Shown: positions 2,929 through 52,133 of the stretch, piece after piece
Layout: each line of letters begins with the position of its first letter
How positions within the stretch are numbered: position 1 is the stretch's first letter
Notes under the pieces: generated by a model
Seen by the model: only the letters and a program-made list of their open reading frames with translations
Databases searched by the model: none
Told to the model about the DNA's origin: nothing
Source of the DNA: an uncultured virus (IMG/VR IMGVR_UViG_3300044986_000857)
Lineage: Duplodnaviria > Heunggongvirae > Uroviricota > Caudoviricetes
DNA: 64,000 bases
Virus record (IMG/VR): IMGVR_UViG_3300044986_000857
Reading direction: 5' to 3' (one strand)
Program-made: the position numbers and the translations under genes

Positions 2929-4571
2929 TCTTCGCCCTCGTCGTCGTCGTCGTAAAGGTCGTCGTCGTACGTCCACATACCGCCCATCGGCTGCGCGTAG
3001 GCGGCGCGGGCGAGCGCGGCCACTTCGGGGTCGGTGTACGCGAGCGGATCGGGGTTTTCGCGCATCGCGCCCTGCATCTGGTCCAACGCGGGCGGCATCT
3101 GCCGCATCTGCCGCAGCTGCCGTCGCAGCGCGTCTGCTTGGTCCAGCAACTCCCGCCGACGCCGTTCGTCCGGCTCGTTCGCCGCGCTGTCCCACAGTTC
3201 GTTGACCTCGGCGAAGACGCGCTCCTTTGCAGCGCTGGCAGCTTCCCACGTCTGCCCCTTCACGGGCGGTGCGAACGGGTCGATGCCGATGCGCTGCATG
3301 GCAAGCAGACCGGGTCGCAGATCGCCGATCTCTTCGATGGCTTGCGCGTGCGCTTCCCCGCCAAGCTGTGCGGTCAACGCGCGAAGGCGCGAAATCTTCC
3401 GCAGCAACGGGTCGTATGCGTCTGCTCTTGTCGGCATGTTCAAGTGGTTCACCAGAAACTCGACGACGGCGCGCACGTCGTCGACGCCCGCCTCGCCCTT
3501 GAACACGGCCTCGTCGGGATCGAAGCCCGGGATGCGGTTGGCCTTGCCCTTGACTTGCTTTACCCGCTGCTCGGGCAGACGCACCTCGATCGTGAACTTC
3601 GGCTTTCCGGCGGGCGTGCGGATTCCGTAAATGTCCATTTTTCCTTCTTCGACGCGCTCCCTGTAGTGCTCGCCGCCCACACAAATGCCAAGGCCGACCG
3701 GCGGCGACATTCCTTCCAGCGTCAGCTGCGCGGGGCGCAGCTTCGCGACGTAGAAGCCCCGCGCCGACGCGCCGCCGATGCTGTTGTTGGTGCCGTCGTA
3801 GCGATAGACGACGTCATCGGGCGCGAAGTCCATGCCTCGCAGCACAGTCATCACTTCGCCGATGTTCACGCGCAGAACGAGCGCGTCTTCCGTCCGCGTT
3901 GCGTGCGCGCTGGCGAACTCGTCGCGTCCGCGAATGACGCCTTTCTTCCAGCGCCAAATAGAAGCGTCCGGGTCGCGCAGCGCCATCCACTCTTTGTTCG
4001 TCATCTTCACTTTACGCAAAAACTCGACGCCCTCCCCCGTCAAGATTTCCACGGCGACGCGCACATCGCTGTCCGTGACGTACGGCCAAACGCTCTTCAA
4101 GAACGCTTTGCGGGCAATCTGATGCTTTCGACGTCCTCGTCCTCTGTGATAGCTGCGCTCGCCCAACGGCACAATCGTTTTCGTGTCGCTGACCACCACG
4201 CCGGGGTCTTGCCCCGACAGACTTCCCCCCATCAACAGCTCTTCCGCTCCGACTTCGTCAAGGTAGTAGAGATCGTCGATTCCAACCTTGTCAAAATACT
4301 CTGGTCCTGACAGCATCGTCGACACTACTTCAAGCGCCCTCTTCGACAAGCCTACCGGCTTGAACAGCTCAAGCGCAGCTGAAATCAAGCCTTTCAGCTG
4401 CTTGTTTTCTTGCGCCTTGCGAAACACTCTTTCTACTTCTTTTCTTTCCAGCCGATCCCTGACGTGCTGCACGACCGCCATGATGCGCTTGCTCTCGGCC
4501 TCGGCGTGCGCCACGGACGGGTTCTCGTAGGGGTAGTCGTAGTCGGCGTCGGGGTTGTAGCGGTAGCGCAT
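2925..4571 (-). CDS. PcfJ-like domain protein
   Basis: LEG...ICVGG..Y...V..G...IYGIR...GKPKFTIEV...VKQVKGKANR matches the PcfJ-like pattern. Confidence 0.7.
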   Translation of the reverse strand: MRYRYNPDADYDYPYENPSVAHAEAESKRIMAVVQHVRDRLERKEVERVFRKAQENKQLKGLISAALELFKPVGLSKRALEVVSTMLSGPEYFDKVGIDDLYYLDEVGAEELLMGGSLSGQDPGVVVSDTKTIVPLGERSYHRGRGRRKHQIARKAFLKSVWPYVTDSDVRVAVEILTGEGVEFLRKVKMTNKEWMALRDPDASIWRWKKGVIRGRDEFASAHATRTEDALVLRVNIGEVMTVLRGMDFAPDDVVYRYDGTNNSIGGASARGFYVAKLRPAQLTLEGMSPPVGLGICVGGEHYRERVEEGKMDIYGIRTPAGKPKFTIEVRLPEQRVKQVKGKANRIPGFDPDEAVFKGEAGVDDVRAVVEFLVNHLNMPTRADAYDPLLRKISRLRALTAQLGGEAHAQAIEEIGDLRPGLLAMQRIGIDPFAPPVKGQTWEAASAAKERVFAEVNELWDSAANEPDERRRRELLDQADALRRQLRQMRQMPPALDQMQGAMRENPDPLAYTDPEVAALARAAYAQPMGGMWTYDDDLYDDDDEGEE

Positions 4572-4579
4572 GGGTCCAC

Positions 4580-4605
4580 ACTGTCGCAAACCGCCATGCT
4601 ACGGT
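4580..4605. promoter_or_regulatory. Overlapping divergent late-type promoters
   Basis: Plus strand: GTCGC-N12-TACGGT, 6 nt before ATG 4612. Minus strand: GTAGC-N12-GACAGT, 8 nt before ATG 4571. Confidence 0.55.
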
Positions 4606-4611
4606 AGAGGA

Positions 4612-4881
4612 ATGAAGCGCGCGTGGCTCTGGATCGTGGCGGCGGCGACGGCGGTGGCAGCGGCGGTAGCTGGCATCGTCCTGCTTGTTCTGACCGGGCA
4701 GCGAAAGACACCCGTGTTGCCCCCGCCCGAGCGGCCCGACACGCCGCCCGTCGACAAGCCCCTCGTCACGCTGCGCCCCATCGACGACTACGAGACGACC
4801 AAGGCGGTGCCTGTCGCGGCACCGGATGCCGTGATCACGCGCATCAACGCCCGGCACAGCGACAACGGAGACAAGCCATGA
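4612..4881 (+). CDS. Small protein with N-terminal transmembrane helix
   Basis: MKRAWLWIVAAATAVAAAVAGIVLLVL; ATGA-coupled to the next gene. Confidence 0.7.
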   Translation: MKRAWLWIVAAATAVAAAVAGIVLLVLTGQRKTPVLPPPERPDTPPVDKPLVTLRPIDDYETTKAVPVAAPDAVITRINARHSDNGDKP

Positions 4882-5090
4882 GTTACCACTTGCAGGGGTT
4901 CGCGCAGCTGCCCGCCAAGACACCCGACCTCGAAACCCCGGTCAGCGCCACCATCGGCATCCCCGGGTTCAACATCGACGTTCCGATCGTATCGAAGGAA
5001 CGTCTGTACCTCGCCATCGGGTTCAGCGTGTTCGTCGGCGCAATCGGCGGCACCGTGCTCGCATCGTATCTCAAGCGAGCGCAGTCGTGA
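4878..5090 (+). CDS. Small C-terminally anchored membrane protein
   Basis: Starts MSYHLQGFAQ; C-terminal hydrophobic helix followed by KR. Confidence 0.7.
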   Translation: MSYHLQGFAQLPAKTPDLETPVSATIGIPGFNIDVPIVSKERLYLAIGFSVFVGAIGGTVLASYLKRAQS

Positions 5091-5524
5091 GACTCGCCCT
5101 CGCGCTCGCCTCGCTCGTCGCCCTCCCAGCGCAGGCTCCAAACCCGCCAGCCTTGGCCGTAGGCGCGGACTGCGGCACGCGGGCAGGCTCGTACACGCTC
5201 GTCCGAAACGACGTGCTGGCGAAGATGGACGCCGCCGAAGAGAACCTTGCGAAAGCGGAAGCCGCGCTCAAAAAGGCCCAAGCGGACCTGCAAGCGCTCG
5301 ACGCCGCGTTCGACAAGCTGCAAGGGCAGAAGACGCAGCTGGTCGAGCACGTCGACCTGTTGGAACGGGTGCTGAAAGAGCAGCGCGAGGCGTGTACGGC
5401 GGGCCAGAACGCCAGCGACATCGCCGCGGAAGCGTGGGAATGGGCTGACGCCCCGCTCGCCTTCACGGCGGGCGCGGGCATGTGCATCGGCGTTGCGTGG
5501 GGTCTGACGCAGGTACAGCGCTAG
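5087..5524 (+). CDS. Coiled-coil protein with signal-like N-terminus and C-terminal hydrophobic helix (possibly spanin-like)
   Basis: Hydrophobic N-terminus, heptad-rich centre and C-terminal TM, near the endolysin. The spanin role is inference. Confidence 0.6.
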   Translation: MRLALALASLVALPAQAPNPPALAVGADCGTRAGSYTLVRNDVLAKMDAAEENLAKAEAALKKAQADLQALDAAFDKLQGQKTQLVEHVDLLERVLKEQREACTAGQNASDIAAEAWEWADAPLAFTAGAGMCIGVAWGLTQVQR

Positions 5525-5528
5525 CCGG

Positions 5529-5822
5529 TCAGTCGTTTTTTCTCAGGAAGAAGTAGAGCACCGCGAGTCCAGCCACGGCTCCGATCAGCCAGCCCGTGTT
5601 GCTCTTGTTGCCGGCACTTCCAGCGTCTTCAACCGTTTCAAAGCGAATGGTGAGCTTTTCTCCATCCTTCGCTGCGGCGACACGCAGCATGTCTGCGCGG
5701 GCGACCTTGACAAGCGTGTCGCCTTCCTTGAACTGGATAGGGTCAGCCGCGGACTTCAACAGATTGCGCGCCTGCTCTCTTCGGCTTTCGCGTACTACGA
5801 CGTTTTGCGTGATCACCGCCAT
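5529..5822 (-). CDS. Small C-terminally anchored membrane protein
   Basis: GGAGG RBS; ends WLIGAVAGLAVLYFFLRKND. Confidence 0.75.
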   Translation of the reverse strand: MAVITQNVVVRESRREQARNLLKSAADPIQFKEGDTLVKVARADMLRVAAAKDGEKLTIRFETVEDAGSAGNKSNTGWLIGAVAGLAVLYFFLRKND

Positions 5823-5863
5823 GCAAACCTCCGCGTCGGGTTTTACCGCACCCGGGCGCTACG

Positions 5864-6670
5864 TCAGCCGTCGGCCTTCTTCGCCTTCTTCGGCTTCTTT
5901 TCCGAGGGAGCCTTCTTCAACGCCTTCTCCAACTCGGCGATGCGCTGCTCGACCTCTTCGGCGTCGAACGGCAACTCGGGAAGCTCCGGGGCCGGCTTCT
6001 TCTCGGCGTCGGCGAGGCGCGCTTCCAGCGATGCGATCTTGGCTTCCAGCGCGACCTTGTCGGCGGCGCGCGCCGCTTCGCACGCCTTGTGGTCGCCCTT
6101 GTCGTCCTGCAACTCGATCTTCTTCTCCTTGATCTCCAACTCCTTCATGCGCTGTTCGTGCTTCTGCTTCGCGAAGCTCTGGTAGAACTTCCACGCAGCG
6201 CCGCCGCCGCCGACGGCGATCAGCGTGAGCAGCACCGTGACGCCCGTGCCCCCGCTGCCGTCTCGCGGCAAGAGCGCTTGAATCTCGGCCACGGCCGTTG
6301 TCGCAGCCGGCGCTTCGGTCACATGCGCGAGCGGGGCCGCGGGCGGTCCCTGCAACGGCGCGGGCAGGGGCGCGGCCTTGCTCTCGCGCTCGACGGCAGC
6401 GTCGGCGGCGTCGGTGGCGTCGGTGGCGTCGGCGCTGTCTTGCGCGGGGGATGCTGGTTCGGTCATGGCTGGTTCCTTCTTTGTGTGCGCTGGGCGCGTG
6501 TTGAAAGCGGTGTTGGGGTCGTAGATGGTGAAGCACTCGCCCACGGGGATGCGACAGCCGCTCGCCGCAGTAAGCGCGCCCACCGGCAAGCATCCCTGTC
6601 CGTCTCGCGGAATGTCGTCGGCGAACTCGCACTCGGGCAGAAGCGGCCCGGCGTCGACGGGGTCGGTCAC
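5864..6670 (-). CDS. Membrane protein with coiled coil (holin candidate); alternative start at 6466
   Basis: GTG overlaps the endolysin stop; one TM (VTVLLTLIAVGGGGAAW) followed by a charged coiled coil. Confidence 0.6.
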   Translation of the reverse strand: MTDPVDAGPLLPECEFADDIPRDGQGCLPVGALTAASGCRIPVGECFTIYDPNTAFNTRPAHTKKEPAMTEPASPAQDSADATDATDAADAAVERESKAAPLPAPLQGPPAAPLAHVTEAPAATTAVAEIQALLPRDGSGGTGVTVLLTLIAVGGGGAAWKFYQSFAKQKHEQRMKELEIKEKKIELQDDKGDHKACEAARAADKVALEAKIASLEARLADAEKKPAPELPELPFDAEEVEQRIAELEKALKKAPSEKKPKKAKKADG

Positions 6671-7128
6671 TTGGGCATCCCGGGCGTGTAGACGGTCTTG
6701 CCGCCTTCGCGCGACGCGGTGAGGATCTGGCCGCGCTGCTTGCCGACCCGCTTGTGCGAGACGTGAATCCAGCCACCGTTCGGGTCGCCGGGCACAAGGA
6801 ACTCGCATATGAGCTGGTCAAAAGGGAGCTTCATCGCCACGATCTTCTTCGCGAGCGCGAGGTTGTCGAAGCCGTCGAACTCGATGTCCGCGGCTTCACC
6901 CGTGCTGTGCTGGCTGGTGTTGCTCCCGCCGACCGCCTTGTTCACGGCTGCGCTGCGAAAGCCGCTGTTGACGCGCATGGGCTTGCCCATCGCCACGCGC
7001 AGCGGCTCCAACACGTTCACGCAGAGCGCGCGAAGGTTCTCGACGACGTCGGGCGGCGGCGTGTTGTCGGCCTTGACCGACGTGCGGGTCATTTCAGCGA
7101 GGGTGAAGTGAGGCGACAGCTGGGTCAT
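6667..7128 (-). CDS. Peptidase M15A endolysin
   Basis: LSPHFTLAEM, SGFRS...N..VGG...SQH..GEAAD and WIHVS zinc-ligand motifs. Confidence 0.9.
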   Translation of the reverse strand: MTQLSPHFTLAEMTRTSVKADNTPPPDVVENLRALCVNVLEPLRVAMGKPMRVNSGFRSAAVNKAVGGSNTSQHSTGEAADIEFDGFDNLALAKKIVAMKLPFDQLICEFLVPGDPNGGWIHVSHKRVGKQRGQILTASREGGKTVYTPGMPK

Positions 7129-7134
7129 GCCGCG

Positions 7135-7157
7135 AGCGTATCGGGTCGATTTGCAAC
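7135..7157 (-). promoter_or_regulatory. Late-type promoter (leaderless spacing)
   Basis: GTTGC-N12-TACGCT, 6 nt before ATG 7128. Confidence 0.55.
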
Positions 7158-7181
7158 GCAGCGCAGCTACACGCTCGACGC

Positions 7182-7228
7182 AAAAAAAGAGACGCGAACC
7201 GGCAGGGGGAAACCGGATCGCGCCTCTC
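7182..7228 (-). terminator. Intrinsic terminator
   Basis: Stem GAGGCGCGA.CCGG / CCGG.TCGCGTCTC followed by a T run on the minus strand. Confidence 0.65.
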
Positions 7229-7263
7229 ACCCGCCAACGGCTACCCGCCAAGGTGCCGCCGAC
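7182..7263 (-). ncRNA. Candidate small RNA of about 80 nt
   Basis: TTGACA(7297-7292)-N16-TAAAGT(7275-7270) upstream; hairpin plus T7 downstream (7228-7182); no credible ORF; two TTGGCGGGT motifs. Confidence 0.5.
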
Positions 7264-7307
7264 ACAACCACTTTACTCGCGTCCTGCCCGTTGTCAACCC
7301 CGTCGGG

Positions 7308-8123
7308 TCATGTGTTCGTGCTCTCGGTGTGCGTGACTTCGACCCACAGGTTGCCGTCAAAGACGAAGGTGAACGTACCGCCGGGGTCAATCTTCTTCGT
7401 CGCGTTCGACATCGACAGCTTTTCGGCAACGCCCCGCTGCAAGGTGACGTGTCGACCCGTCGTGTCGACGTTCAAGATGATCTGAACCTGTCCGAGCACA
7501 GCGCCGGGGAGATTGATCTGCGGCGTCGACGTCAACGTGTGATTCACGCCGTTGGTCTGGATGCGGTGCAAGAGAGCGACGGGCGTGATCTGGTCGGTGT
7601 TGGCGCTGATCGTCTGGATCGGGCCGGTGCCGAGAACGAACGACGAGATCGGAGCCGTGATCGAGATCGGCACCGTCGTCGCCGACGTGACGTGGCCCTT
7701 CGCGTCCACCGTGACGCGGGCGCTGTTGCTCGCGTCGCCGTAGGTGCCCGCGACGACGCCGCTCGCGTCGTGACTCACGACGGGGTTGCCGCCGGGCGTG
7801 ACGTTGATCGGCGCGATGCCCGTGACGCTTGCTACGCCGCCGCCAGAGACGCCCACCGGCTTCCAGATCGAGAACGCTGCGTCCCAGATGAACCACGACT
7901 CGTCAGCCCGGCTCATGCGGACGTCGCCGTCCTCGTTGCCGGTCGCGGGGAGCGCCGCGAAGTCCGCGACCTCGGGGCGAACGTGGCACTCGTCGATCCA
8001 ATCGCCAAGAATCCACTCGTAGGGTGTCGCTGGTGTTCCAACGGGCGACCCCGTAGGAACGGGCGGGAAGCCCGGCAGATTGTTCAGCTGCTTGCGGATC
8101 TTGTCGTTCCAGTTTTGCGTCAT
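7308..8123 (-). CDS. Fibre/spike protein, QNWN anchor family copy 1
   Basis: N-terminal ~85 aa closely similar to the 55187 and 60735 genes; fibre-like motif GVVAGTYG...VTVDAKGHVTSAT. Confidence 0.75.
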   Translation of the reverse strand: MTQNWNDKIRKQLNNLPGFPPVPTGSPVGTPATPYEWILGDWIDECHVRPEVADFAALPATGNEDGDVRMSRADESWFIWDAAFSIWKPVGVSGGGVASVTGIAPINVTPGGNPVVSHDASGVVAGTYGDASNSARVTVDAKGHVTSATTVPISITAPISSFVLGTGPIQTISANTDQITPVALLHRIQTNGVNHTLTSTPQINLPGAVLGQVQIILNVDTTGRHVTLQRGVAEKLSMSNATKKIDPGGTFTFVFDGNLWVEVTHTESTNT

Positions 8124-8138
8124 CGATCCCTCCGGTTT

Positions 8139-8861
8139 TCAACAACCGCCGCAACCACAGCTGCACACGGGATTGTGTCTCAAGTCTAGGTGCGCCGGCC
8201 GCGGCCGCACGCCCGGCCCAAGCGTCTGCACGTCGTCGGCGTCGTAGCTGATACGGACCCCGAACGCGCCTTCCGCGCACTCGTCGCACTCGCGCTCGGT
8301 GTGGTCGTCGTAGCCGTGCTGAATCAGAATGACGTGCCCGAGTTCGTGCATGAGCACGGCGTCGATGCGCTCGGGCGGCTGCGCGGCGAGCTTCGGCCTC
8401 ACGTACACCGTGTCGCCGTCGGTGGCCGCGAACGCGCGGCGTGAGCGCGGGTCGCGCCCGGCGAGCGCTGCTTCCTCGTCGACGACGAGCGTGGCGTGCG
8501 TGTTGATCATGGCGCACAACTCGTCGAAGCGTTCATGCAGCGGGTCGGGGTTTCGCCGCGCACCGCCGAGCCGCTTCGCGCGTCGCACGGCGTCGGCAAA
8601 CGCCGTGTTGATGCTCGACGACTGACCCCACAGCGCGTACCACGACCAGAACCCCGGGCTGCCCGGGTCGTCGAGGTTGTCGCGTTGGTGGCGGTTCCAG
8701 TACCGCTCGCGGCGCGCGGTGTCCTTGTGCTGCGTGAAGTCCTGCATCGACGAGTCGCCGAAGTGAACGACCTTGCCGCGCCCCGACGCCGTCGGCACGC
8801 GCACCATCCACTTCTTGCCCGGGCGCGTCGAGCGCTGCCGCTTGTAGTATTCGTCCGACAC
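8139..8861 (-). CDS. Two-domain protein: DUF5754-like domain plus zincin metallopeptidase-like domain
   Basis: KKWMV...VHFG...DFTQHKD..RR..Y..RH...SPGFWS..LW, then RRNP, then HELGH...E, then HNP and a CSCGCGGC tail. Confidence 0.65.
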   Translation of the reverse strand: MSDEYYKRQRSTRPGKKWMVRVPTASGRGKVVHFGDSSMQDFTQHKDTARRERYWNRHQRDNLDDPGSPGFWSWYALWGQSSSINTAFADAVRRAKRLGGARRNPDPLHERFDELCAMINTHATLVVDEEAALAGRDPRSRRAFAATDGDTVYVRPKLAAQPPERIDAVLMHELGHVILIQHGYDDHTERECDECAEGAFGVRISYDADDVQTLGPGVRPRPAHLDLRHNPVCSCGCGGC

Positions 8862-8877
8862 GATACGCTCTCCCCGC

Positions 8878-9072
8878 ATGAAACCTTACGTGGACCCTGT
8901 CGACGTGATCGCGCGGCCCTTCGCGGCCTTCTTCACCGAACTGTTCTGCGCTTCAGCCCGTCCGAACCCTGACTCGGTCGGCACCGCGCGCCTGCCCGCC
9001 GTCGATGACGTCGTGCGCTTCGACCTCTGCGTCGAGTGCTTGCGCGCACACGACGAGTGCTCCTGCGACTAG
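8878..9072 (+). CDS. Small Cys-rich hypothetical protein
   Basis: Fills the gap between two minus-strand genes; ends CVEC...CSC. Confidence 0.35.
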   Translation: MKPYVDPVDVIARPFAAFFTELFCASARPNPDSVGTARLPAVDDVVRFDLCVECLRAHDECSCD

Positions 9073-10247
9073 CGACGGCGACGGTGCGGGTTCTGCCTCG
9101 CCCACGCCTCTTCGTCGTTCCACAGGGTTGAAAGTCCCGCAGCGGCAAGATCGACCAACGTGGGGAACGACTCGACGACGTCGCCCTCGCTCGCGTTCTC
9201 AATCTCGTCTTGTGCTCTCGCCGCCCCGTACTGGTTGTATCCCATGCCGCTCTCGGCGAGCGCCCACGTCCATTCCAGCCACGCGCTCAAGGGCATCTGC
9301 TCAAACGCAGACTCGATCGCGTGCTGCGCCAGTTCCTTCGTTTCGTTGCGCGGCTGGTCGACGGCGAAGTGCTTGACGGCGTGCCACAGCACACGTCGCG
9401 CTTCTTGACTGAACGGCACGTCGACGAGGTCTGTGGACGTCCTCGACACGCTCTCTGCCGCGCGCGCCTCGCGCGCCGCGCGAGCCTTTTCGTACGCCGC
9501 GTCGGCTTCTTCCTCGGCGATGCGTGCGGCTTCTTCTTGGGCGCGCAAAGCGGCTTCTTGCGCCCGCAAATCGGCCTCGGAGATACGCGATACGCGCTCT
9601 GGTTCTCTGACCGGAGCAAGAACAGGAGCCGGCGCGGGTGCTGCCTTCTTGCCCCCGGTGAAGAAATCGAAAAAGCCGTTGCGTCGCAGGGCGCGCGGGT
9701 TCTTGCGCGGCTTGTCGTCGATCGGCATGCCGAACATGTCGACCTGTCGCGTGTCACTGGCCGCAGGCTTTTTCTTCTTCGGCTTGGCCTCGTACGACGA
9801 GGGCGCGAACAAGCCCTGCTGCACGACCTCGGCGCGCAGCTGCAACTCGCTCTGCTTTCGCCGCTGGCGCTCCTGCTCTTCGGCTTCCAAGCGCTCGCGC
9901 TCGACCCGCTCCGAGATCGCCTTGTAGTCGGGCAACTCGGGCGGCTGGAACGCCGCCGAACGCGCCAGCCGCGCCGCCCGCGCCTCGTCCGACCCGTACC
10001 ACGGCTCGTCGTCGGGGTTGCCGACCGGCTCGCTGCCCGACCGATGCTTCATGTGCTGAAAGATTCCCATGACGTAGGGCCAATCGCGCGCACGGCCCTG
10101 CCGCGCTGCGCTGGCCTTCGCCATGCGCCACAGCCGCTCGTCGCGCGCGGTGTGGACGACGCTCGCCGGGTTCTCGACGACGTCGACGTCGTCGTCCTCG
10201 TAATCGGTATCGGATTCAGCGTACTCGGGCGGGTTGTAGCGCGGCAT
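9069..10247 (-). CDS. Multi-segment protein punctuated by xNP motifs
   Basis: RYNP, VENP, GNP, RKNP, RRNG and RQNP separate compositionally distinct blocks. Confidence 0.8.
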   Translation of the reverse strand: MPRYNPPEYAESDTDYEDDDVDVVENPASVVHTARDERLWRMAKASAARQGRARDWPYVMGIFQHMKHRSGSEPVGNPDDEPWYGSDEARAARLARSAAFQPPELPDYKAISERVERERLEAEEQERQRRKQSELQLRAEVVQQGLFAPSSYEAKPKKKKPAASDTRQVDMFGMPIDDKPRKNPRALRRNGFFDFFTGGKKAAPAPAPVLAPVREPERVSRISEADLRAQEAALRAQEEAARIAEEEADAAYEKARAAREARAAESVSRTSTDLVDVPFSQEARRVLWHAVKHFAVDQPRNETKELAQHAIESAFEQMPLSAWLEWTWALAESGMGYNQYGAARAQDEIENASEGDVVESFPTLVDLAAAGLSTLWNDEEAWARQNPHRRRR

Positions 10248-10253
10248 GCCGTG

Positions 10254-10276
10254 AGTCTATCCCGCGCGCCTGCTAC
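10254..10276 (-). promoter_or_regulatory. Late-type promoter (leaderless spacing)
   Basis: GTAGC-N12-TAGACT, 6 nt before ATG 10247. Confidence 0.7.
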
Positions 10277-10280
10277 GCGG

Positions 10281-10892
10281 TCACGCCTTCTTTCGACGCC
10301 GCTTCTTCTCGGGGTTCAGCAGCGGCGCAGCCGGCGACAGCGTCGGAGCCGGGGCTGGGTCGAGCGGCATCACGATCGGAGCCATGACCGGCACCGTGAC
10401 GTGGACCGGCTCGCTCTGCACCGCGACCGGCGCGGGGTTCGACAGCAGCGGCGCAGCCGGCGCGTGCGGCATGGTCAGGTTGACCGTGACGTTCGGCATC
10501 GCTGCGGGTGCGGGGGCCGGGTTCTCGCGCAGCGGCCCCGGTCCGTCGTCACTCTCGGCGTCGTCCTCGTCTCCGTCCTCGCCGGACGACGACAAGGCCG
10601 AGAGCAGGGCGATGCCTGCGCCAGCTGCAAGCAACCAGAAAAGACCGTTGCCGCCGCTACCGCCGCCTCCCGACGGTGGCGCGGGCGGCATCGGCCCGGG
10701 TGCCTCTCCGAGCTTGCGCGCACGGGGGTCGAGCGCGCGTTCTACTTGCGATACGGTTTCGTATCGGTAGCCGTTCAACCGCACGCCTTCGCGGTCGGCG
10801 GCCTCGCGCGTGCCGTGAGGGTTGTTGCCTCGCCTGTCGGCGACGTCGAACGCCTGACGACGCAGCGCTTCGTGCAACTTGCTGGAACGCAT
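10281..10892 (-). CDS. Pro-rich membrane protein with xNP motifs
   Basis: GGAG RBS; central TM LFWLLAAGAGIALLSAL; NNP, RENP, SNP, LNP. Confidence 0.7.
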   Translation of the reverse strand: MRSSKLHEALRRQAFDVADRRGNNPHGTREAADREGVRLNGYRYETVSQVERALDPRARKLGEAPGPMPPAPPSGGGGSGGNGLFWLLAAGAGIALLSALSSSGEDGDEDDAESDDGPGPLRENPAPAPAAMPNVTVNLTMPHAPAAPLLSNPAPVAVQSEPVHVTVPVMAPIVMPLDPAPAPTLSPAAPLLNPEKKRRRKKA

Positions 10893-10903
10893 CGCGGCTC
10901 CGT

Positions 10904-11446
10904 TCAATCTTCGCCGTCGTCGCCCTTGCCATCGTCTGCGTCGTCGTCATCGGGCGGGTTTTCGCGTGCGCCTTCGCCAGCACCGACCATCGGCATCACG
11001 TACTTCTGCGCCGCCCATAGCGCCGCAGCGCCCACACCCGCAGCGACGGCGAGCTTGAACCACGGCCAACCCTCGTCCTTCTTGTCGGTGCCGTTGGTGC
11101 CCGCCAGCTGCGGAGCAACGTAGGCGGAAGGCGCAGGGGGATAGGATACCGGCGGGGCGACGGGCGCGGAGGGGGGTGGAAAAACACCCTGCTGCGCGAG
11201 AATGGCACGTTCACGCTCCGTCGGCTCGCGGAACTCTTCGTACTTCTCGACGTTGCCAGTCTTGCGATTGCGCACGGCGCGGGCGACGCGCATGTGTCCC
11301 GGGGACGGGAACACGGCGACGAGCGTTTCACGCAAATCTTCGCCATCGGAGTCGATGGTCGGGCTAGCAGCATCCAAGGGCTTACCGCCCTGCCCGTATC
11401 CAAAGATTCCGTCGGGGCCGGGCTGCGTGAAAATGCCGTCGCTCAT
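10904..11446 (-). CDS. Membrane protein
   Basis: Two N-terminal DGIF repeats; TM WFKLAVAAGVGAAALW; RENP before an acidic tail. Confidence 0.7.
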   Translation of the reverse strand: MSDGIFTQPGPDGIFGYGQGGKPLDAASPTIDSDGEDLRETLVAVFPSPGHMRVARAVRNRKTGNVEKYEEFREPTERERAILAQQGVFPPPSAPVAPPVSYPPAPSAYVAPQLAGTNGTDKKDEGWPWFKLAVAAGVGAAALWAAQKYVMPMVGAGEGARENPPDDDDADDGKGDDGED

Positions 11447-11454
11447 GTGACCTC

Positions 11455-11829: not shown

Positions 11830-11833
11830 ACGC

Positions 11834-17930: not shown

Positions 17931-17988
17931 GGCACAAGGGCTTGACTCACGCGAACGCGGCGTTACTGAACATACACAAGGGGAAACC

Positions 17989-28859: not shown

Positions 28860-29071
28860 GGCCCCGTGCGGTGCGCCGCCGATACGGTAGAAAAGACGGC
28901 GAGACACCGCAAAACGCCGGAGATTCAAGGGGTTAGCCGGGCTTGCGCTTCGCGGTGGCGTATCGGGCGCGACCGTGCTACGGTACAGGTGCCCGGTGCC
29001 ACCGGCCGGGCCGGGCGACACCCGCCGCCCGCCACCCCCCGCCGCACCCGCCCGACCCGGAGACACCCGCC

Positions 29072-30361
<1,290 letters not shown>

Positions 30362-30443: not shown

Positions 30444-30485
30444 ATCCCCGCCCGGCGACCCGCCACCCCCGACCCCGGAGCTACC

Positions 30486-31571: not shown

Positions 31572-31607
31572 CACCCGCCCGACACCCGCCACCCCGGAGG
31601 CCCGACC

Positions 31608-33203
31608 GTGACCCGCCCCCTACCCGCCACCCTCACCGAACCCGCGCCGTCGACGCGCGAGCGCAGCGCGTACGCGCGCGTGACCTACCCCGCCGCCCTC
31701 GCCGACCACGCCGCGCTCGTCGACGTCGCCAGCGACCCCGGCGAGGCCGCCGCGCTCGTCGCCGAGACGCACGCCGCCCTAGTCGACCCGGACGGCGGGC
31801 GCGACCTGCCCGCGCCGAGCGCGATCGGGGCCGCCGTCGCCCGCGCGCTGCGCGCCGCGCCCGAGTGGCAGGCCCTCGCCGACGTCGCCGCCGGCAGCCC
31901 CCGGATCGCCGCCGAGGCGACGGCGACGCTCGCGCCCGCGATCCGCGCCGCGCTCGTCCGCGCGCAAGCCGGCCGCACCGACGGACGCGGCGCGGGGCTG
32001 GCCCTCGCCGCCGCCCGCGCGCGGCTGGAGCGCGCCCGGGCCGCCGCCGCCGCCGCCCGCGCCGAGGCCGACGCCGCCGAGGCCGCCGCCGACGCCGTCG
32101 CCACTGACCCGGCCGCCGACGACGCCGCCCTCGACGCCGCCGAGGATGCCGCCGACGCCGCCCGGGCCGCCGCCGACGCCGCCGGGCGCGACGCCGCCGA
32201 CGCCGCCGACGCCGCCGACCGCGCGGGCGCGGCGTGTCAGGCGGCCGGGGCCGTCGCCGGCCGGATCGATGCGACCGCCGGCCCGGCCGTCGCCGCCGCC
32301 GTCGCCGCCGCCGCCCGGGTCGCGGGCGAGGCCGCCGCCGACCACGCCGCCCTCGCCGGGTGCGGGCTGGCCGCCGCGATGGGCGCGGACACCCCGGACG
32401 AGATCCCGGGCGACGTCGTCGACGCGCTGCGCGGGGCCGATCTGCGGGCGCTCCTGCGTCTCGTCGGCGCGCTGCGCGCCGCGCTGCGCGCCGGGCGCGC
32501 GACGCGGCACCTGCCCGGGCGCGACGGCGTCGTCGGTCGCGACGTCGGCGGGCTGGATCGGATCGCGGACCTCGCGCCGATGACCCGGGCCGCCCTCGCC
32601 GGGCACCTTGGCGGCGGGCTGGCATCGCTGGCCGCGCTGCGTCTCGTACAGGGCACGGCGGCGATCGTCGACCGTGGCGGCGGGCACGCGCACCGGGGTC
32701 ACGTCGCCGTCGTCGTCGACCTGTCCGGCAGCATGGAGGGTGCCCGCGCGACGTGGGCGCGAGCGCTGGCCCTCGCCGTCGTGCTGGAGGCCCGCGCCGA
32801 GCATCGCGCCGCCGCCGTCGTCACCTACTCCGGCACCGTGCGCGGAACGGCCCTCGCCGACACGCCCGCCGGCATGGCCGATGCCGTGCGGCTCTTGTGC
32901 GCGCCCGCCAGCGGCGGGACCGCGACCGGGGCCGCCCTCGCCGCCGCCCTCGCCGCGCTCCGCCAGCTGCCCCGCAGCGGCGACGCCGCCGACGTGCTCC
33001 TCGTGACCGATGGCGACTGGACCGCCGACGCCGTCGCCGGCTATCCCACCGCGCCCGGGTCGCCGCGCCTGCGGGTCGTCACCGTGGGCGGCGCGATGCC
33101 CCCGGACGTCTCGCCCGCCGTCGCCGAGGCGTGGACGGTCGACGTCGTCGAGGGGGCCGAGGGCGAGCGACACGCCGTGTCGATCGCCCGGGCCGTCGTC
33201 TGA
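31608..33203 (+). CDS. vWA (ViaA-like) domain protein
   Basis: MIDAS DLSGSM, GGT, LVTDG; GGAGG RBS. Confidence 0.85.
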   Translation: MTRPLPATLTEPAPSTRERSAYARVTYPAALADHAALVDVASDPGEAAALVAETHAALVDPDGGRDLPAPSAIGAAVARALRAAPEWQALADVAAGSPRIAAEATATLAPAIRAALVRAQAGRTDGRGAGLALAAARARLERARAAAAAARAEADAAEAAADAVATDPAADDAALDAAEDAADAARAAADAAGRDAADAADAADRAGAACQAAGAVAGRIDATAGPAVAAAVAAAARVAGEAAADHAALAGCGLAAAMGADTPDEIPGDVVDALRGADLRALLRLVGALRAALRAGRATRHLPGRDGVVGRDVGGLDRIADLAPMTRAALAGHLGGGLASLAALRLVQGTAAIVDRGGGHAHRGHVAVVVDLSGSMEGARATWARALALAVVLEARAEHRAAAVVTYSGTVRGTALADTPAGMADAVRLLCAPASGGTATGAALAAALAALRQLPRSGDAADVLLVTDGDWTADAVAGYPTAPGSPRLRVVTVGGAMPPDVSPAVAEAWTVDVVEGAEGERHAVSIARAVV

Positions 33204-33288: not shown

Positions 33289-33332
33289 ACGGCAACCGCC
33301 GCCGCAGACCCGCAACGAAAGGACCGCCCGCC

Positions 33333-33670
<338 letters not shown>

Positions 33671-33671
<1 letters not shown>

Positions 33672-33748: not shown

Positions 33749-33783
33749 CGAGCCGGCGAACCCGCAACGAAAGGACACCCGCC

Positions 33784-34089
33784 ATGCCTGACCCCGTCCC
33801 CGTTCCCGCCCCCGCCCCCGCCCGCGTCTGGCGCGTCGTCACGTCCAACGGCGCTTTCTGGCAGATCCACCACGTCGTCGCCGTCGACGAAGCCGCCGCC
33901 CGCGCGCTCGCCGAGAGCGAGCACGGCGCGAACGACCCACGCGCGCTCGCTGCCGAGGCGCGCGCCGCCGCCGAGATCGGAGAAGACCCCGCCGGGCGCT
34001 ACGCAGCACACCGCGTCGACGAAGTCGACGACGCCGATCCCGAAAACTTCCGCGCGGTTTCGTTCGTCGCCGCTGGCGGGGAGGGTTGA
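33784..34089 (+). CDS. Hypothetical protein
   Basis: AAAGGA RBS and ACCCGCCATG start context. Confidence 0.7.
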   Translation: MPDPVPVPAPAPARVWRVVTSNGAFWQIHHVVAVDEAAARALAESEHGANDPRALAAEARAAAEIGEDPAGRYAAHRVDEVDDADPENFRAVSFVAAGGEG

Positions 34090-34092: not shown

Positions 34093-34326
34093 ATGCCGTA
34101 TCCTATCCCGCTCACAATCGAAGCCCTCGCCGTCGTCGAGGAAACCGGCCTGACCCCGCGCGAGATTGCCCGCGACGTCGCCGACGTTCGCGCCGGCTAC
34201 CTGACCCGCGCCGCCCTGCTCGCGCTCTGTCTCGACGGTGCCGAGGATGACCGCATCCCCGGCTGGCGTTCGTACGTCGCCGCCGTCGTCGCCGCCGCGA
34301 AGAGCGCGCGGCGGATCTGCGCTTGA
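34093..34326 (+). CDS. Hypothetical protein
   Basis: GGAGGG RBS; natural-looking ORF. Confidence 0.65.
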   Translation: MPYPIPLTIEALAVVEETGLTPREIARDVADVRAGYLTRAALLALCLDGAEDDRIPGWRSYVAAVVAAAKSARRICA

Positions 34327-34358
34327 CAACTGACACCGCGTGCCGATACTATCGGCAC
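34323..34358 (+). promoter_or_regulatory. Sigma70-type promoter with an overlapping palindromic operator
   Basis: TTGACA-N18-TACTAT; perfect GTGCCGATA-C-TATCGGCAC over the -10. Confidence 0.8.
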
Positions 34359-34403
34359 ACCCGCCCGCAACCCACAACCCGCCAACGAAAGAAAGAGGCC
34401 GCC

Positions 34404-34803: not shown

Positions 34804-34898
34804 GGCGACGTCAACGACGCGGCGACCCGCCGACAACCGCAACCCGCACCGGAGCACACCCGCCAATGTCCCGAGCACAACCCCACGGAGGATCCGCC

Positions 34899-35522: not shown

Positions 35523-35567
35523 GTCTCGCCCGCAACCACAACCCGCCAACGAACGAAGGAGCACCCG

Positions 35568-36029: not shown

Positions 36030-36059
36030 AACCCGCCCCGGCACGAAGGAGAACCCGCC

Positions 36060-36416
36060 ATGCCTCACACGTTCTGTTGTCTCTGCGGTGTGGAGACGCC
36101 CCGCGCCGCCGTCAGCGCCCCGCGCGTCTTCGCCGCGAACCTCTTGACCGTATGCCCGACGTGCGACGACCGCGAGACCGCGCGCCGCGCGTGCGTCTGC
36201 CGTGGGCACGGCTGGCTCGTCTCGACGTCGTCCGAGTACGGAACGACCATCGAGCGCTGCGACAGCTGCGCCGTGTTCGTCAACGACTTCGCCGCCGCTG
36301 CCACCGCGAAGGCCGCCGTGCGCGGCGACGCCGCGACCGATGACGCCGACGTCGTCGGCACGTCGGCGTGCGAAGCGTTCGTCAACGCAATCATGCACGA
36401 CCGGGGGATTCGATGA
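36060..36416 (+). CDS. Zinc-finger-like protein
   Basis: Several CxxC pairs; AAGGAG RBS. Confidence 0.7.
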   Translation: MPHTFCCLCGVETPRAAVSAPRVFAANLLTVCPTCDDRETARRACVCRGHGWLVSTSSEYGTTIERCDSCAVFVNDFAAAATAKAAVRGDAATDDADVVGTSACEAFVNAIMHDRGIR

Positions 36417-36667: not shown

Positions 36668-36686
36668 CCCGCAAAGGAGACCCGCC

Positions 36687-37004
36687 ATGCCCCGACGACC
36701 CCGAGAACCCAAGCGCGTCGACAAACCCGCGCGCCTGCCGATCCGCGCGCTCGACCGTAACCGCAAGCCCCACACGTTCCGCCCCGGTGACACCGTGCGC
36801 GTGTTCCCCGAGATGGGGCCGGGCGGCCGGCACCCGCTCGACGTCGACGGGCAGGGCTTCTACGTCGACACCGTGCGCGCGACCTATCGCACCATGCTCG
36901 ACTGCACGACGGCGTTCGGAAAGCCGGTCGTGCGTCTGACCGAATGCGTCGTTCTCACGCAGTCGTCGTGGGCGCGCTGCGACCAGCTGGAGGCTGTCAA
37001 ATGA
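36687..37004 (+). CDS. Hypothetical protein
   Basis: AAGGAG RBS. Confidence 0.7.
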   Translation: MPRRPREPKRVDKPARLPIRALDRNRKPHTFRPGDTVRVFPEMGPGGRHPLDVDGQGFYVDTVRATYRTMLDCTTAFGKPVVRLTECVVLTQSSWARCDQLEAVK

Positions 37005-51557: not shown

Positions 51558-52133
51558 GTGGCGAACAACAAGACCCGCTGGACGAAAGACGACCCGCCAA
51601 ACACTTTGCTCGCGATCGACCCCGGTGCTCGCTACCCGAAGAGCGGCGTACCGTATGCGGGCGCAGCCTACTTCCAATGGGGCGAGTTGGTCTGGGCCGG
51701 GCTGGTGAAGGCGCACGGCGTCGTCGCTCCTTTTGGCCGACCGAACGAGTTGGTGCATCGCGTGTTGCAGTCTGCCGGTATCCCGCGCACGAAACACGAC
51801 CCCGGGGAGCCGTTGACAGTCCTCGCCGTCGAGGTTCCGCGCGTGTACGTCGGAGGGAAAGCGCGACCCGAAGACATCGTGCAGCTGGCGGTCATCGCGG
51901 GTGCCTTTTGCGGCGGCGTCGAGGCCGAGTTCTACTCTTGCCCGCGTCCGTCGGAGTGGAAGGGAACGATCGACGGCGACATTTTGTGCGATCGGGTGAT
52001 GAACAAGATCGCAAACACAGCAGAGCGCATGATCATCGGGCGAGCCGAGGGCGGAACGACGTCGCACGTGCAAGACGCCTTTGGGCTTGGTTGTTGGGTT
52101 CTTGGACGTATGGGAACAGGAGGCGTGGTGTGA
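51558..52133 (+). CDS. RuvC-like Holliday junction resolvase
   Basis: LLAIDPG, LAVE, PSEWK, HVQDAFGLG. Confidence 0.8.
   Translation: MANNKTRWTKDDPPNTLLAIDPGARYPKSGVPYAGAAYFQWGELVWAGLVKAHGVVAPFGRPNELVHRVLQSAGIPRTKHDPGEPLTVLAVEVPRVYVGGKARPEDIVQLAVIAGAFCGGVEAEFYSCPRPSEWKGTIDGDILCDRVMNKIANTAERMIIGRAEGGTTSHVQDAFGLGCWVLGRMGTGGVV

What the first reader, a model, noticed from the sequence alone, without database searches (positions are those of the whole stretch)
7182..7297. Candidate sRNA complementary to the shared start-codon context of the early genes
Seen: on the minus strand TTGACA-N16-TAAAGT is followed by about 80 nt without a credible ORF, ending in a hairpin and U7. This RNA contains UUGGCGGGU twice (plus-strand ACCCGCCAA at 7229 and 7243). 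Its complement ACCCGCCA lies in early-gene leaders: touching the ATG at 29065, 33777, 34858, 36053 and 36680, and just upstream of the RBS at 30458, 31584, 34377 and 35541. The last two match over 11 nt (ACCCGCCAACG). Inference: one trans-acting antisense RNA could block translation of the whole early module. Alternatively the motif is a protein-binding site.
Basis: partly seen in the sequence, partly recalled or inferred. Interest (0 to 1): 0.75.

Follow-up and report, generated by a model that had tools for sequence, protein, structure and literature searches.

The report
Candidate phage anti-leader small RNA
An uncultured lake-water phage has a tiny promoter-to-terminator unit whose roughly 80-base RNA carries two mirror copies of a tag found at the translation starts of about ten of its non-structural genes, so one RNA may control their translation together, but no transcript has been seen.

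Summary
On the minus strand, 7297-7182 holds TTGACA-N16-TAAAGT, a 5' hairpin, the strongest intrinsic terminator in the window and U7. The predicted ~82-nt RNA carries UUGGCGGGU twice.

Its complement, ACCCGCCA, is the most start-enriched 8-mer in the window. There are 12 copies in the 28.9-37 kb block against 0.38 expected, and 11 of the 12 lie between -28 and +22 of a start codon, covering 10 genes. All 10 leaders carry a two-part tag, which mirrors the two seeds.

- Both seeds lie largely inside a stable hairpin.
- Predicted binding energy is barely better than for G-rich shuffles.
- All five relatives found lack the cassette. The two records checked also lack the tag (one of the five, plus a sixth relative).
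- Four DNA runs hold an identical copy, so covariation cannot be tested.
- No RNA data exist.

Best reading (about 0.4): a trans-acting antisense RNA, also present as the 3' end of the tail operon, that blocks ribosome binding on the tagged messages. Rivals are a transcription junction or attenuator whose match is a relic or chance, and a DNA-binding protein that recognises the same motif.

The nearest known systems are the start-associated sequences of Cluster K mycobacteriophages and the P1 c4 RNA. Interest is moderate to high.

The parts
7292..7297 (-). -35 hexamer TTGACA, 11 nt after the stop codon of the upstream tail gene
7270..7275 (-). -10 hexamer TAAAGT (16-nt spacer); the start site is inferred at about 7263-7265
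   Evidence: start site inferred from spacing
7182..7263 (-). Predicted ~82-nt two-hairpin RNA. The same sequence forms the 3' end of any transcript reading out of the tail gene.
   Evidence: -48.2 kcal/mol, z -4.5, 0 of 200 shuffles as stable; no known RNA family
7233..7263 (-). 5' hairpin that holds both seeds. Four nt of seed 1 form the apical loop.
   Evidence: -19.6 kcal/mol, z -2.4, 4 of 200 shuffles as stable
7243..7251 (-). Seed 1, UUGGCGGGU (plus strand ACCCGCCAA)
   Evidence: opening cost 5.8 kcal/mol
7229..7237 (-). Seed 2, UUGGCGGGU (plus strand ACCCGCCAA; ACCCGCCAACG matches 34377 and 35541 over 11 nt)
   Evidence: opening cost 7.7-9.4 kcal/mol
7182..7228 (-). Intrinsic terminator: G+C-rich hairpin followed by U7 (7188-7182)
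   Evidence: most stable of 42 candidates in the window
7308..8123 (-). Upstream gene: tail or depolymerase-like protein (weak Phage_depo_C match, below Pfam's cut-off)
6667..7128 (-). Downstream gene: M15 peptidase endolysin. It starts 53 nt after the U-tract and has no obvious ribosome-binding site.
29047..29072 (+). Two-part tag abutting the ATG of the MoxR-type ATPase gene
30447..30465 (+). Two-part tag 20 nt before ATG 30486
31574..31629 (+). Two-part tag before GTG 31608 (VWA-domain gene), plus a further copy at +15..+22
33309..33348 (+). Variant tag (CCGCCCGCC) abutting ATG 33333, plus an ACCCGCCA copy at +9..+16
33761..33784 (+). Two-part tag abutting ATG 33784
34323..34384 (+). Sigma-70-like promoter (TTGACA-N18-TACTAT) overlapping a palindrome, followed by a two-part tag 19 nt before ATG 34404
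34843..34865 (+). Two-part tag abutting ATG 34866. An alternative in-frame GTG at 34899 has a better ribosome-binding site.
35529..35548 (+). Two-part tag 19 nt before ATG 35568
36032..36060 (+). Two-part tag abutting ATG 36060
36668..36687 (+). Two-part tag abutting ATG 36687
51573..51608 (+). Possible eleventh tagged start in the replication module: a leader-like two-part tag ending 6 nt before an in-frame TTG at 51606
   Evidence: for the sequence context; the start codon is my inference and no family match supports it

Best explanation
The 178-bp spacer between the tail gene and the endolysin gene (7130-7307, minus strand) is a small transcription unit. A sigma-70-type promoter drives an RNA of about 82 nt that ends at a strong intrinsic terminator. 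Transcripts reading out of the tail operon would end at the same terminator and so carry the same sequence as their 3' end.

The RNA has a 5' hairpin holding two copies of UUGGCGGGU, 14 nt apart, followed directly by the terminator hairpin and U7. I propose it acts in trans as an antisense RNA.

Proposed steps:
1. The apical loop and weak upper stem of the 5' hairpin nucleate on the single-stranded ACCCGCCA(A/U) unit next to the start codon.
2. The hairpin then unzips, and the second seed pairs with the upstream (A/G)CCCGC(C/A) unit of the same leader.
3. The resulting duplex covers the ribosome-binding site and/or the start codon of about ten consecutive non-structural genes (29072-36687), and perhaps one at 51606, and blocks 30S binding.

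Shown here: the sequence signals, the fold, the motif statistics, the positions relative to starts, and the complementarity. Inferred: that the RNA is made, that it pairs in vivo, the direction of the effect (repression), its timing, and any chaperone.
For: 1. Signals.
- A perfect -35, a 16-nt spacer and TAAAGT. The strict pattern occurs 3 times in the window against 0.27 expected. One of the other two sits right in front of a tagged leader (34323); the third is at 14135 on the minus strand.
- The terminator is the strongest of 42 candidates.
- The whole RNA folds with z -4.5.

2. The tag is real and lies at the translation level.
- 12 copies in the block against 0.38 expected, all on the coding strand.
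- 11 of 12 lie between -28 and +22 of a start codon, covering 10 genes.
- By my arithmetic, such windows cover about 7% of the block.
- 7 of the 10 starts are the first possible start codon of their ORF, so they were not chosen with the motif in mind.
- An unbiased count makes ACCCGCCA the top start-enriched 8-mer (8 start regions, 26-fold).

3. The mirror.
- Only 0.42% of 82-nt windows outside the block (466 of 111,074, from 6 loci) contain the complement at all.
- The cassette is the only one of those loci that is non-coding, carries two copies, and sits between a promoter and a terminator.
- The two copies share exactly the 9-mer and nothing around it.

4. The two-part match.
- 10 of 10 leaders have a second unit 10-21 nt upstream. 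The null rate is 0.125 over the whole block and 0.33 within spacers.
- In 3 of the 10 cofold structures one contiguous segment containing both seeds covers both units.

5. Orientation. The cassette copies lie on the same DNA strand as the tags, although local transcription runs the other way. RNA-RNA pairing requires exactly this.

6. Accessibility of targets. The tags fold mostly unpaired, downstream of strong spacer hairpins.

7. Cofold ranking. The top 8 of 73 start regions are tagged genes (-19.5 to -26.1 kcal/mol; median of all -3.9). 8 of 10 tagged targets reach -19 or lower, which 0 of 60 shuffled heads matched.
Against: 1. Both seeds are mostly paired in a hairpin of -19.6 kcal/mol. 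Only 4 nt of seed 1 and 3 nt of seed 2 are free.

2. Thermodynamics is not specific. Heads with the same dinucleotide content bind the C-rich leaders with a mean of -17.7 (sd 2.2) against -19.4 observed, and 15 of 60 do as well or better.

3. Two tagged genes score poorly: 33784 at -14.0 and 36060 at -5.6.

4. No conservation.
- In all five relatives that cover this junction, the tail gene is followed at once by the endolysin (L043) or by two small membrane ORFs and then the endolysin (L037, L044, L045 as printed; L001 is the same contig as L037). A sixth relative, L038, has a different arrangement.
- The two relatives with longer records show no tag enrichment: 1 copy in 39 kb and 3 in 110 kb, and no start-enriched 8-mer of this kind.
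- Neither record has the MoxR gene.

5. Four DNA runs carry the cassette without a single difference, so there is no covariation.

6. Five other copies of the complement sit in ordinary coding sequence, for example inside the GIY-YIG gene at 18930. A single copy can therefore arise by chance.

7. The loose promoter scan is not enriched, and promoter activity in an unknown host is not testable here.

8. A protein that recognises the same 9 bp in DNA would explain the shared motif equally well.
Confidence: 0.42

Rival explanations
1. The cassette is a transcription junction only. It would be the terminator of the tail operon plus a promoter or attenuator that sets how much RNA polymerase reads on into the lysis genes (endolysin at 7128, a spanin-like gene below it). 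The two anti-tag copies would then be a relic of an inverted leader-type sequence, or chance, with no trans function.
For: - The cassette sits exactly at the tail/lysis boundary and replaces what in relatives is a direct gene overlap or two small membrane ORFs.
- The terminator is strong and the endolysin lacks its own ribosome-binding site and promoter.
- Read on the plus strand, the cassette looks like a leader of the 'tag, tag, ribosome-binding site' type without a start codon.
- The seeds are buried in a hairpin.
- Binding energy is no better than for many shuffles.
- Single copies of the complement occur by chance in coding DNA.
Against: - A promoter placed upstream of a strong terminator makes a short RNA whatever else it does.
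- No alternative anti-terminator fold appears; the minimum-energy structure holds 22% of the ensemble and matches the centroid except at the terminal 5' pair.
- There is no homology beyond 11-13 nt with any leader, so a recent inverted copy is not supported.
- Two exact 9-mers whose flanks differ, in the one mini-unit of the window, are unlikely by chance. From the rate is about 0.4% per 82-nt window for a single copy.
Confidence: 0.3
2. ACCCGCCA(A) is the DNA site of a phage or host protein, a stoperator-like repressor or roadblock. The protein would bind at the head of each tagged gene and at two tandem sites just downstream of the cassette promoter. The shared motif would then reflect one protein, not RNA pairing.
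For: - The motif is short, asymmetric and in many copies, as in known phage operator families (recalled: the stoperators of Cluster A mycobacteriophages).
- The tandem copies lie at about +14 to +35 of the cassette promoter, and a tag lies at about +18 of promoter 34323.
- Palindromes with a CCGAT...ATCGG core sit in the same spacers and could be operators.
- An HTH protein is encoded at 38261-38542.
Against: - The position is fixed relative to start codons, not to promoters. Five copies end in the A of the ATG.
- The spacing of the two units varies from 10 to 21 nt, which suits flexible RNA pairing better than a rigid dimer.
- The orientation relative to transcription is reversed at the cassette, whereas stoperators keep one orientation relative to transcription (recalled, not tested).
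Confidence: 0.18
3. The cassette is a lambda-type late or lysis control unit: a constitutive promoter that makes a short terminated RNA unless an antiterminator modifies RNA polymerase. The repeats would serve as part of the loading or pause site.
For: A promoter, a short RNA, a strong terminator and then lysis genes is the layout of lambda PR'-tR' (recalled).
Against: - The gene upstream is a tail or depolymerase-like protein, not an antiterminator.
- The structural genes lie upstream, not downstream.
- No Q-like family was reported among the 58 ORFs scanned.
- This model does not explain why the repeats mirror the leader tag.
Confidence: 0.07

Closest known systems
[quoted passage not shown] 2011, PMC3203893, passages read; status in 2024-2025 from passages of PMC11373665 and PMC12699233)
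   Same: - A short asymmetric motif in 11-19 copies, found only in the non-structural half of the genome.
- One orientation, within a few bases of start codons, mostly ATG.
- About half have an upstream inverted repeat, later proposed to hold a promoter. Compare the palindrome and promoter at 34323 and the hairpin elements in six other spacers.
[quoted passage not shown] That parallels the cassette.
- Function unknown; the authors left open a factor that is 'either RNA or protein'.
   Different: - The sequence is unrelated. The SAS contains the ribosome-binding site itself. Here the tag lies beside or after it.
- The tag here is in two parts.
- The host is probably a Gram-negative or other high-GC freshwater bacterium (inferred only).
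- No antisense RNA has been proposed in the passages I read.
c4 antisense RNA of phages P1 and P7 (Citron and Schuster 1990, seen only as cited and summarised in the review PMC12197685; details recalled)
   Same: A small phage RNA with two short recognition sequences that pair with two matching sites in a target message and block translation at a ribosome-binding site.
   Different: - c4 acts on one operon, next to which it is encoded, and is cut out of a longer transcript (recalled).
- The RNA here would act on about ten separate start regions 22-30 kb away.
- No Rfam model, C4 included, matched the region even at E up to 10.
T4 RegA translational repressor and RegB endoribonuclease (recalled; the review PMC3014915 was seen only in the search listing)
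   Same: Shut-off of many early messages after transcription, through a shared feature of their translation-start regions.
   Different: Those factors are proteins. Here the candidate factor is an RNA and the shared feature is a private tag.
Plasmid countertranscript RNAs (nearest Rfam model ctRNA_pGA1)
   Same: A two-hairpin RNA of about 80 nt whose second hairpin is the terminator, with a loop that could start pairing.
   Different: - Those are cis-encoded opposite their single target.
- The match scores 16.2 bits against a gathering score of 45 (E = 3.8), which is not significant.
3'-UTR-derived, Hfq-dependent small RNAs of enterobacteria (recalled)
   Same: The RNA sits at the 3' end of an operon, shares its terminator, may have its own promoter inside or after the last gene, and has a long U-tail.
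   Different: Those seeds are usually single-stranded; here they lie in a stem. Neither the host nor a chaperone is known.

Membership tests
SAS/ESAS-type start-associated motif system (kind of element, not homology) | Short asymmetric motif in many copies, far above chance | tested here: met
   19 copies against 2.76 expected in the window; 12 against 0.38 in the block
SAS/ESAS-type start-associated motif system (kind of element, not homology) | Copies lie next to the start codons of non-structural genes, in one orientation | tested here: met
   11 of 12 lie within -28..+22 of a start, and 12 of 12 are on the coding strand
SAS/ESAS-type start-associated motif system (kind of element, not homology) | Consensus GGGATAGGAGCCC, which includes the ribosome-binding site (consensus taken) | tested here: not met
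   The tag is ACCCGCCA and lies beside or after the GGAG. This is an analogue, not a member.
SAS/ESAS-type start-associated motif system (kind of element, not homology) | A subset has an upstream inverted repeat, with a putative promoter | tested here: inconclusive
   Hairpin or palindrome elements occur in 7 of 11 spacers. Only one overlaps a consensus promoter (34323).
P1/P7 c4 antisense RNA family (Rfam) | Match to the family covariance model | tested here: not met
   No C4 hit at E up to 10 in 6500-8000. No family reached its gathering score anywhere in the window.
P1/P7 c4 antisense RNA family (Rfam) | Two recognition sequences complementary to two sites in the target leader | tested here: met
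   Two seeds 14 nt apart; the two-part tag is present in 10 of 10 leaders. This shows resemblance in mechanism only.
Intrinsic (Rho-independent) terminator | G+C-rich hairpin directly followed by a U-run | tested here: met
   Hairpin of -25 kcal/mol plus U7, the strongest of 42 candidates. The consensus scan missed it, probably because of an unpaired position in the stem (my inference).
Sigma-70-type promoter | -35 and -10 hexamers with 16-18 nt spacing; activity in the host | tested here: inconclusive
   10 of 12 consensus positions with a perfect -35. Activity cannot be tested and the host is unknown.
Lambda-type Q antitermination unit (PR'-tR') | An antiterminator gene just upstream, and the late structural genes downstream of the terminator | tested here: not met
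   The upstream gene is a tail or depolymerase-like protein, and the structural genes lie upstream
Stoperator-type repressor sites (Cluster A mycobacteriophages; features recalled) | Asymmetric sites that keep one orientation relative to the direction of transcription | tested here: not met
   The cassette copies lie opposite to local transcription, while the tags lie with it (with the gene map)
Hfq-dependent trans-acting sRNA | Single-stranded seed, terminator with a long U-tail, dependence on a chaperone | tested here: inconclusive
   U7 is present. The seeds are mostly paired. The chaperone cannot be tested.

The most novel reading that the evidence does not exclude
A phage encodes one small RNA, made from its own promoter and also carried as the 3' end of the tail operon. 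Its tandem seeds read a private two-part 'address' placed at the translation starts of a whole block of about ten non-structural genes. A single RNA would then set or shut off translation of the block. This would give start-associated sequences, unexplained since 2011, an RNA partner. It would also add to what may be a recurrent phage strategy, because earlier notes of this scan (unchecked by me) describe similar tag-and-mirror pairs in unrelated phages.
Probability: 0.4. Interest if true: 0.8.

Novelty: new variant of a known kind. Interest (0 to 1): 0.56.

Why it matters
Known phage antisense RNAs act on one neighbouring gene or operon. Known shut-off of early messages through a shared start-region feature uses proteins (T4 RegA and RegB, recalled).

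An RNA that addresses about ten scattered start regions through a private tag would be a regulon-scale RNA switch inside a virus. It would offer a testable mechanism for start-associated sequences, whose role passages from 2024 and 2025 still call unknown. It would also be a compact, orthogonal tag-and-antitag pair of possible use in synthetic biology.

In four full-text searches and in passages of a 2025 review of phage small RNAs (where 'early gene' does not occur) I found no such case in print. That is only as wide as those searches.

Tried and rejected
- Expression data: no RNA holder was listed for 3000-12000, so nothing can be said about expression.
- Population variation: contigs of four DNA runs (X2, X3, X9, X13) laid on 6400-8400 cover the cassette with no differences. 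The only variants are at 7980, 8352, 8359 and a 1-base gap at 7636, so there is no covariation signal. The low word shares reflect thin, broken coverage.
- Known phages: megablast of 5000-12000 and of 28500-37500 found nothing. blastn of the cassette gave only 26-nt chance-level hits.
- Relatives: endolysin and tail-protein searches found 36, 2 and 3 loci. Every relative that spans the junction lacks the cassette.
- Early-block protein 34899-35519: no relative in viral or genome contigs. The MoxR gene is absent from G001 and G002.
- Pattern scans in viral contigs: the tandem seed pattern hit 4 unrelated repeat arrays. A 17-nt leader word hit 3 unrelated contigs. One of those, L046, shares 21 nt in a hairpin-leader-ATG context, but its record shows no start association for its 5 copies.
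- No whole genome is held for the window.
- There are no tRNAs and no Rfam families.
- Extended homology between the cassette and the leaders: none beyond 11-13 nt.
- The third non-coding-looking copy of the complement, at 18930, lies inside a GIY-YIG-type ORF, so it was dropped.
- The repeat finder on the block was swamped by GCC-type low-complexity repeats and gave only the positions of the spacer palindromes.
- Rows dropped before counts: I removed three spurious ORFs from the gene list (34717 minus strand, 9369 plus strand, and the over-long endolysin ORF). I added the endolysin start at 7128 and the alternative start at 34866, giving 73 start regions.
- The second permitted genome-contig scan and the protein searches of the large databases were not used. 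Without genomic context they could not test tag-mirror covariation.
Full report
WHAT THE WINDOW IS

The window has 64.8% G+C. No whole genome is held for it. Its DNA occurs in lake-water and freshwater metagenome runs.

Family scans of 58 ORFs gave a sparse phage picture:
- an M15 endolysin (6667-7128, minus strand);
- a weak depolymerase-like tail protein (7308-8123, minus strand);
- family A DNA polymerase, primase, a helicase carrying a LAGLIDADG insert, an exonuclease and a tyrosine recombinase, all on the plus strand between 39.6 and 54 kb;
- a MoxR-type ATPase and a VWA-domain protein at 29-33 kb.

Genes between 0.7 and 28 kb run on the minus strand. Genes between 29 and 54 kb run on the plus strand. 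The 28-34 kb stretch has 75-82% G+C and a C-rich coding strand. Calling the 29-37 kb block 'early' is my inference from its position at the head of the plus-strand non-structural arm.

THE OBSERVATION

Read on the minus strand:
- The tail gene stops at 7310-7308.
- TTGACA lies at 7297-7292 and TAAAGT at 7275-7270, with a 16-nt spacer.
- An RNA starting near 7263 would run 82 nt to the U7 at 7188-7182.
- The endolysin ATG follows at 7128. Homologues in relatives start at the equivalent residue, so the longer in-frame ORFs listed are not genes.

The RNA folds into two hairpins, at -48.2 kcal/mol with z -4.5; 0 of 200 shuffles were as stable.
- The 3' hairpin plus U7 is the strongest intrinsic terminator candidate of the 42 in the window.
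- The 5' hairpin alone is -19.6 kcal/mol with z -2.4; 4 of 200 shuffles were as stable.

The strict promoter pattern occurs three times in the window against 0.27 expected. One of the other two sits directly before a tagged leader, at 34323. The looser consensus scan is not enriched.

No Rfam family matches. The best hit is ctRNA_pGA1 at 16.2 bits against a gathering score of 45, with E = 3.8.

THE TAG

ACCCGCCA occurs 19 times in the window against 2.76 expected. It occurs 12 times in 28,900-37,050 against 0.38 expected from block-wise dinucleotide shuffles, with a maximum of 3 in 500. The extreme composition of the block is therefore not the cause.

All 12 copies are on the coding strand. 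Their positions are as follows:
- Five end in the A of an ATG, or directly abut it.
- Four lie 16-20 nt before a start codon.
- Two lie within the first eight codons.
- One (34701) is internal.

So 11 of 12 lie between -28 and +22 of the start codons of 10 genes. Seven of those ten starts are the first possible start codon of their ORF, so their choice did not depend on the motif.

An unbiased count of 8-mers in -30..+3 of all predicted starts puts ACCCGCCA first: 8 start regions, 26-fold enrichment.

Every one of the ten leaders also has a second, looser unit, CCCGC followed by C or A, 10-21 nt upstream. The null rate is 0.125 over the block and 0.33 within its spacers. The tag is therefore in two parts.

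The spacers upstream of the tags hold strong hairpins, many with a CCGAT...ATCGG core. The tags themselves fold mostly unpaired.

A further leader-like two-part tag ends 6 nt before an in-frame TTG at 51606. That this is a start codon is my inference.

THE LINK BETWEEN CASSETTE AND TAG

Outside the block, only 466 of 111,074 windows of 82 nt (0.42%, from six loci) contain the complement of the tag at all. Five of those loci are single copies in coding sequence. One lies in a GIY-YIG-type ORF. The sixth locus is the cassette.

The cassette differs from the other five in four ways:
- It is non-coding.
- It is bracketed by a promoter and a terminator.
- It holds two copies.
- The copies share exactly the 9-mer and nothing beyond it.

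There is no wider homology between the cassette and any leader.

The copies lie on the same DNA strand as the tags, although local transcription is reversed. The cassette RNA is therefore antisense to the tagged messages.

In cofold models, the 5' hairpin opens and pairs in two or three segments across the ribosome-binding site and start codon. In 3 of 10 targets one contiguous segment containing both seeds covers both units.

The top 8 of 73 start regions by binding free energy are tagged genes, at -19.5 to -26.1 kcal/mol against a median of -3.9. The other two tagged genes score -14.0 and -5.6.

WHAT WEAKENS THE READING

- Seeds. Only the 4-nt loop of seed 1 and the last 3 nt of seed 2 are unpaired. 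Opening costs 5.8 kcal/mol for seed 1 and 7.7-9.4 for seed 2.
- Energy control. Heads with the same dinucleotide content bind the ten leaders at a mean of -17.7 (sd 2.2) against -19.4 observed, and 15 of 60 do as well or better. None, however, reaches 8 strong targets. A G-rich RNA meets C-rich, G-poor leaders whatever its order, so the energies add little beyond the exact-word match.
- Relatives. In the 83% relative (L043) the tail gene overlaps the endolysin start. In L037, L044 and L045 two small membrane ORFs lie between the two genes. L038 is arranged differently again. The cassette is therefore a lineage-specific insertion.
- Longer records. G001 (39 kb) and G002 (110 kb) have 1 and 3 copies of the 8-mer. 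Neither has the MoxR gene, and neither has a start-enriched 8-mer of this kind. G001 starts at the homologue of window position 42.9 kb, so its early block, if it has one, is off the contig.
- Population data. Four DNA runs carry the cassette unchanged.
- No RNA run was listed (recorded under Tried and rejected).

MECHANISM AND RIVALS

I put about 0.42 on a trans-acting antisense RNA that blocks initiation on the tagged messages. It would be made from its own promoter and also carried as the 3' end of tail-operon transcripts. Because the promoter resembles the host consensus, like 34323 and 39488, the RNA may be made throughout infection and reinforced late. That timing is speculation.

The rivals are:
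- A plain junction or attenuator for the lysis genes, with the match a relic or chance (0.30).
- A DNA-binding protein that shares the 9-bp site (0.18). The fixed position relative to start codons, the variable spacing of the two units, and the reversed orientation relative to transcription argue against it.
- A lambda-like antitermination unit (0.07), which fails on gene order.

COMPARISON WITH WHAT IS KNOWN

The tag system works like the start-associated sequences of Cluster K mycobacteriophages. In those phages:
- the motif is asymmetric and in many copies;
- it occurs only in the non-structural half of the genome, in one orientation, beside start codons;
- about half the copies have upstream inverted repeats;
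- the function is unknown, with the factor left open as 'either RNA or protein';
- the role was still called unknown in 2024 and 2025.

Four K1 phages each carry one reversed copy that is not at a gene start. In Anaya I located that copy, with one mismatch, inside the 385-bp non-coding gap between genes 96 and 97. A rightward transcript there would carry the anti-SAS. That parallels the cassette, but I did not follow it further.

The window's tag is not a member of that family by sequence. The candidate RNA resembles the P1/P7 c4 RNA in having two recognition sequences, but it matches no model, and its targets are many and distant.

EARLIER NOTES OF THIS SCAN

A word search returned eight AI notes on other phage genomes that describe a leader tag plus a mirrored copy in a small RNA or hairpin. 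Three of them report that tag and mirror change together in relatives, and one is marked as checked later. I did not test any of them. No look-alike of this cassette was found by sequence, and there were no notes for this genome. They raised my estimate modestly, from about 0.35 to about 0.42. They are not evidence for this locus.

VERDICT

It would be a new variant of known kinds (phage antisense RNA, start-associated motifs). Interest is 0.56.

Noticed in passing
window 28000-34000: This block has 75-82% G+C, against 60-67% elsewhere in the window, with a C-rich coding strand. Its ORFs are full of GCC/GAC-type low-complexity repeats (Ala, Asp and Pro runs), including the MoxR-type ATPase and VWA-domain genes. 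It looks compositionally foreign to the rest of the phage.
   Followed up: partly
window 28490-28740: About five tandem copies of a roughly 60-nt unit built around GGTGGACACCCGGTGGACA lie just upstream of the tagged block. They could be iterons of an origin or a regulator array.
   Followed up: no
window 30379-30440, 31500-31570, 33240-33290, 33678-33750, 34340-34358, 34738-34790, 35969-36025: Strong hairpin or palindrome elements recur in the spacers of the block, many with a CCGAT...ATCGG core. Some stems use G-U pairs, which suggests RNA-level structure. One element overlaps the promoter at 34323. They resemble the extended SAS of Cluster K phages.
   Followed up: partly
window 7130-7307 compared with L037 3798-4160, L044 2130-2490, L045 4798-5170 and L043 1754: The cassette occupies the place where three relatives have two small membrane (holin-like) ORFs and a fourth has a direct stop/start overlap. 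No homologue of those small ORFs was found anywhere in the window by tblastn. A gene for a membrane-anchored coiled-coil protein (spanin-like) follows the endolysin, ending at about 5864.
   Followed up: partly
window 17971-18957 (+): A GIY-YIG-type homing-endonuclease-like ORF lies on the opposite strand inside the minus-strand structural operon, followed by a bidirectional-looking terminator at about 18957-18990. The family call is from reading the translation, not from a scan.
   Followed up: no
window 44331-47321 (+): A 996-aa helicase/primase-like protein carries a LAGLIDADG homing-endonuclease domain at residues 319-389, so it probably holds an intein.
   Followed up: no
window 39096, 39120 (-) and 39488 (+): Three copies of CCCCTTGACAC lie in the A+T-rich control region next to the HTH gene (38261-38542). 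They look like divergent promoters sharing an extended -35 box.
   Followed up: no
window 24262-24285 (-): The second-strongest minus-strand terminator in the window (a 9-bp all-G/C stem plus T6) lies inside the structural operon. Its arms contain the CCCGCCCGG word, which also occurs in the upstream unit of several leader tags.
   Followed up: no
L051 (Anaya JF704106) 39871-39883 (-), record positions about 59870-59882: The single reversed start-associated sequence of mycobacteriophage Anaya lies in a 385-bp non-coding gap between genes 96 and 97, after a clear terminator. A rightward transcript there would carry the complement of the SAS, making it a possible anti-SAS RNA.
   Followed up: partly
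L046 1930-2050 (record G003, 30,896 bp): An unrelated 53% G+C viral contig shares 21 identical bases with the leader at 34372-34392, in the same hairpin, leader, ATG layout. Its record has 5 copies of ACCCGCCA, which are not start-associated. This is probably chance.
   Followed up: partly
window 51573-51608 (+): A leader-like two-part tag (ACCCGC..ACGAAAGAC.ACCCGCCA) ends 6 nt before an in-frame TTG, which would start a protein with the residues LLAIDPG. It may be an eleventh tagged gene, lying outside the main block.
   Followed up: no
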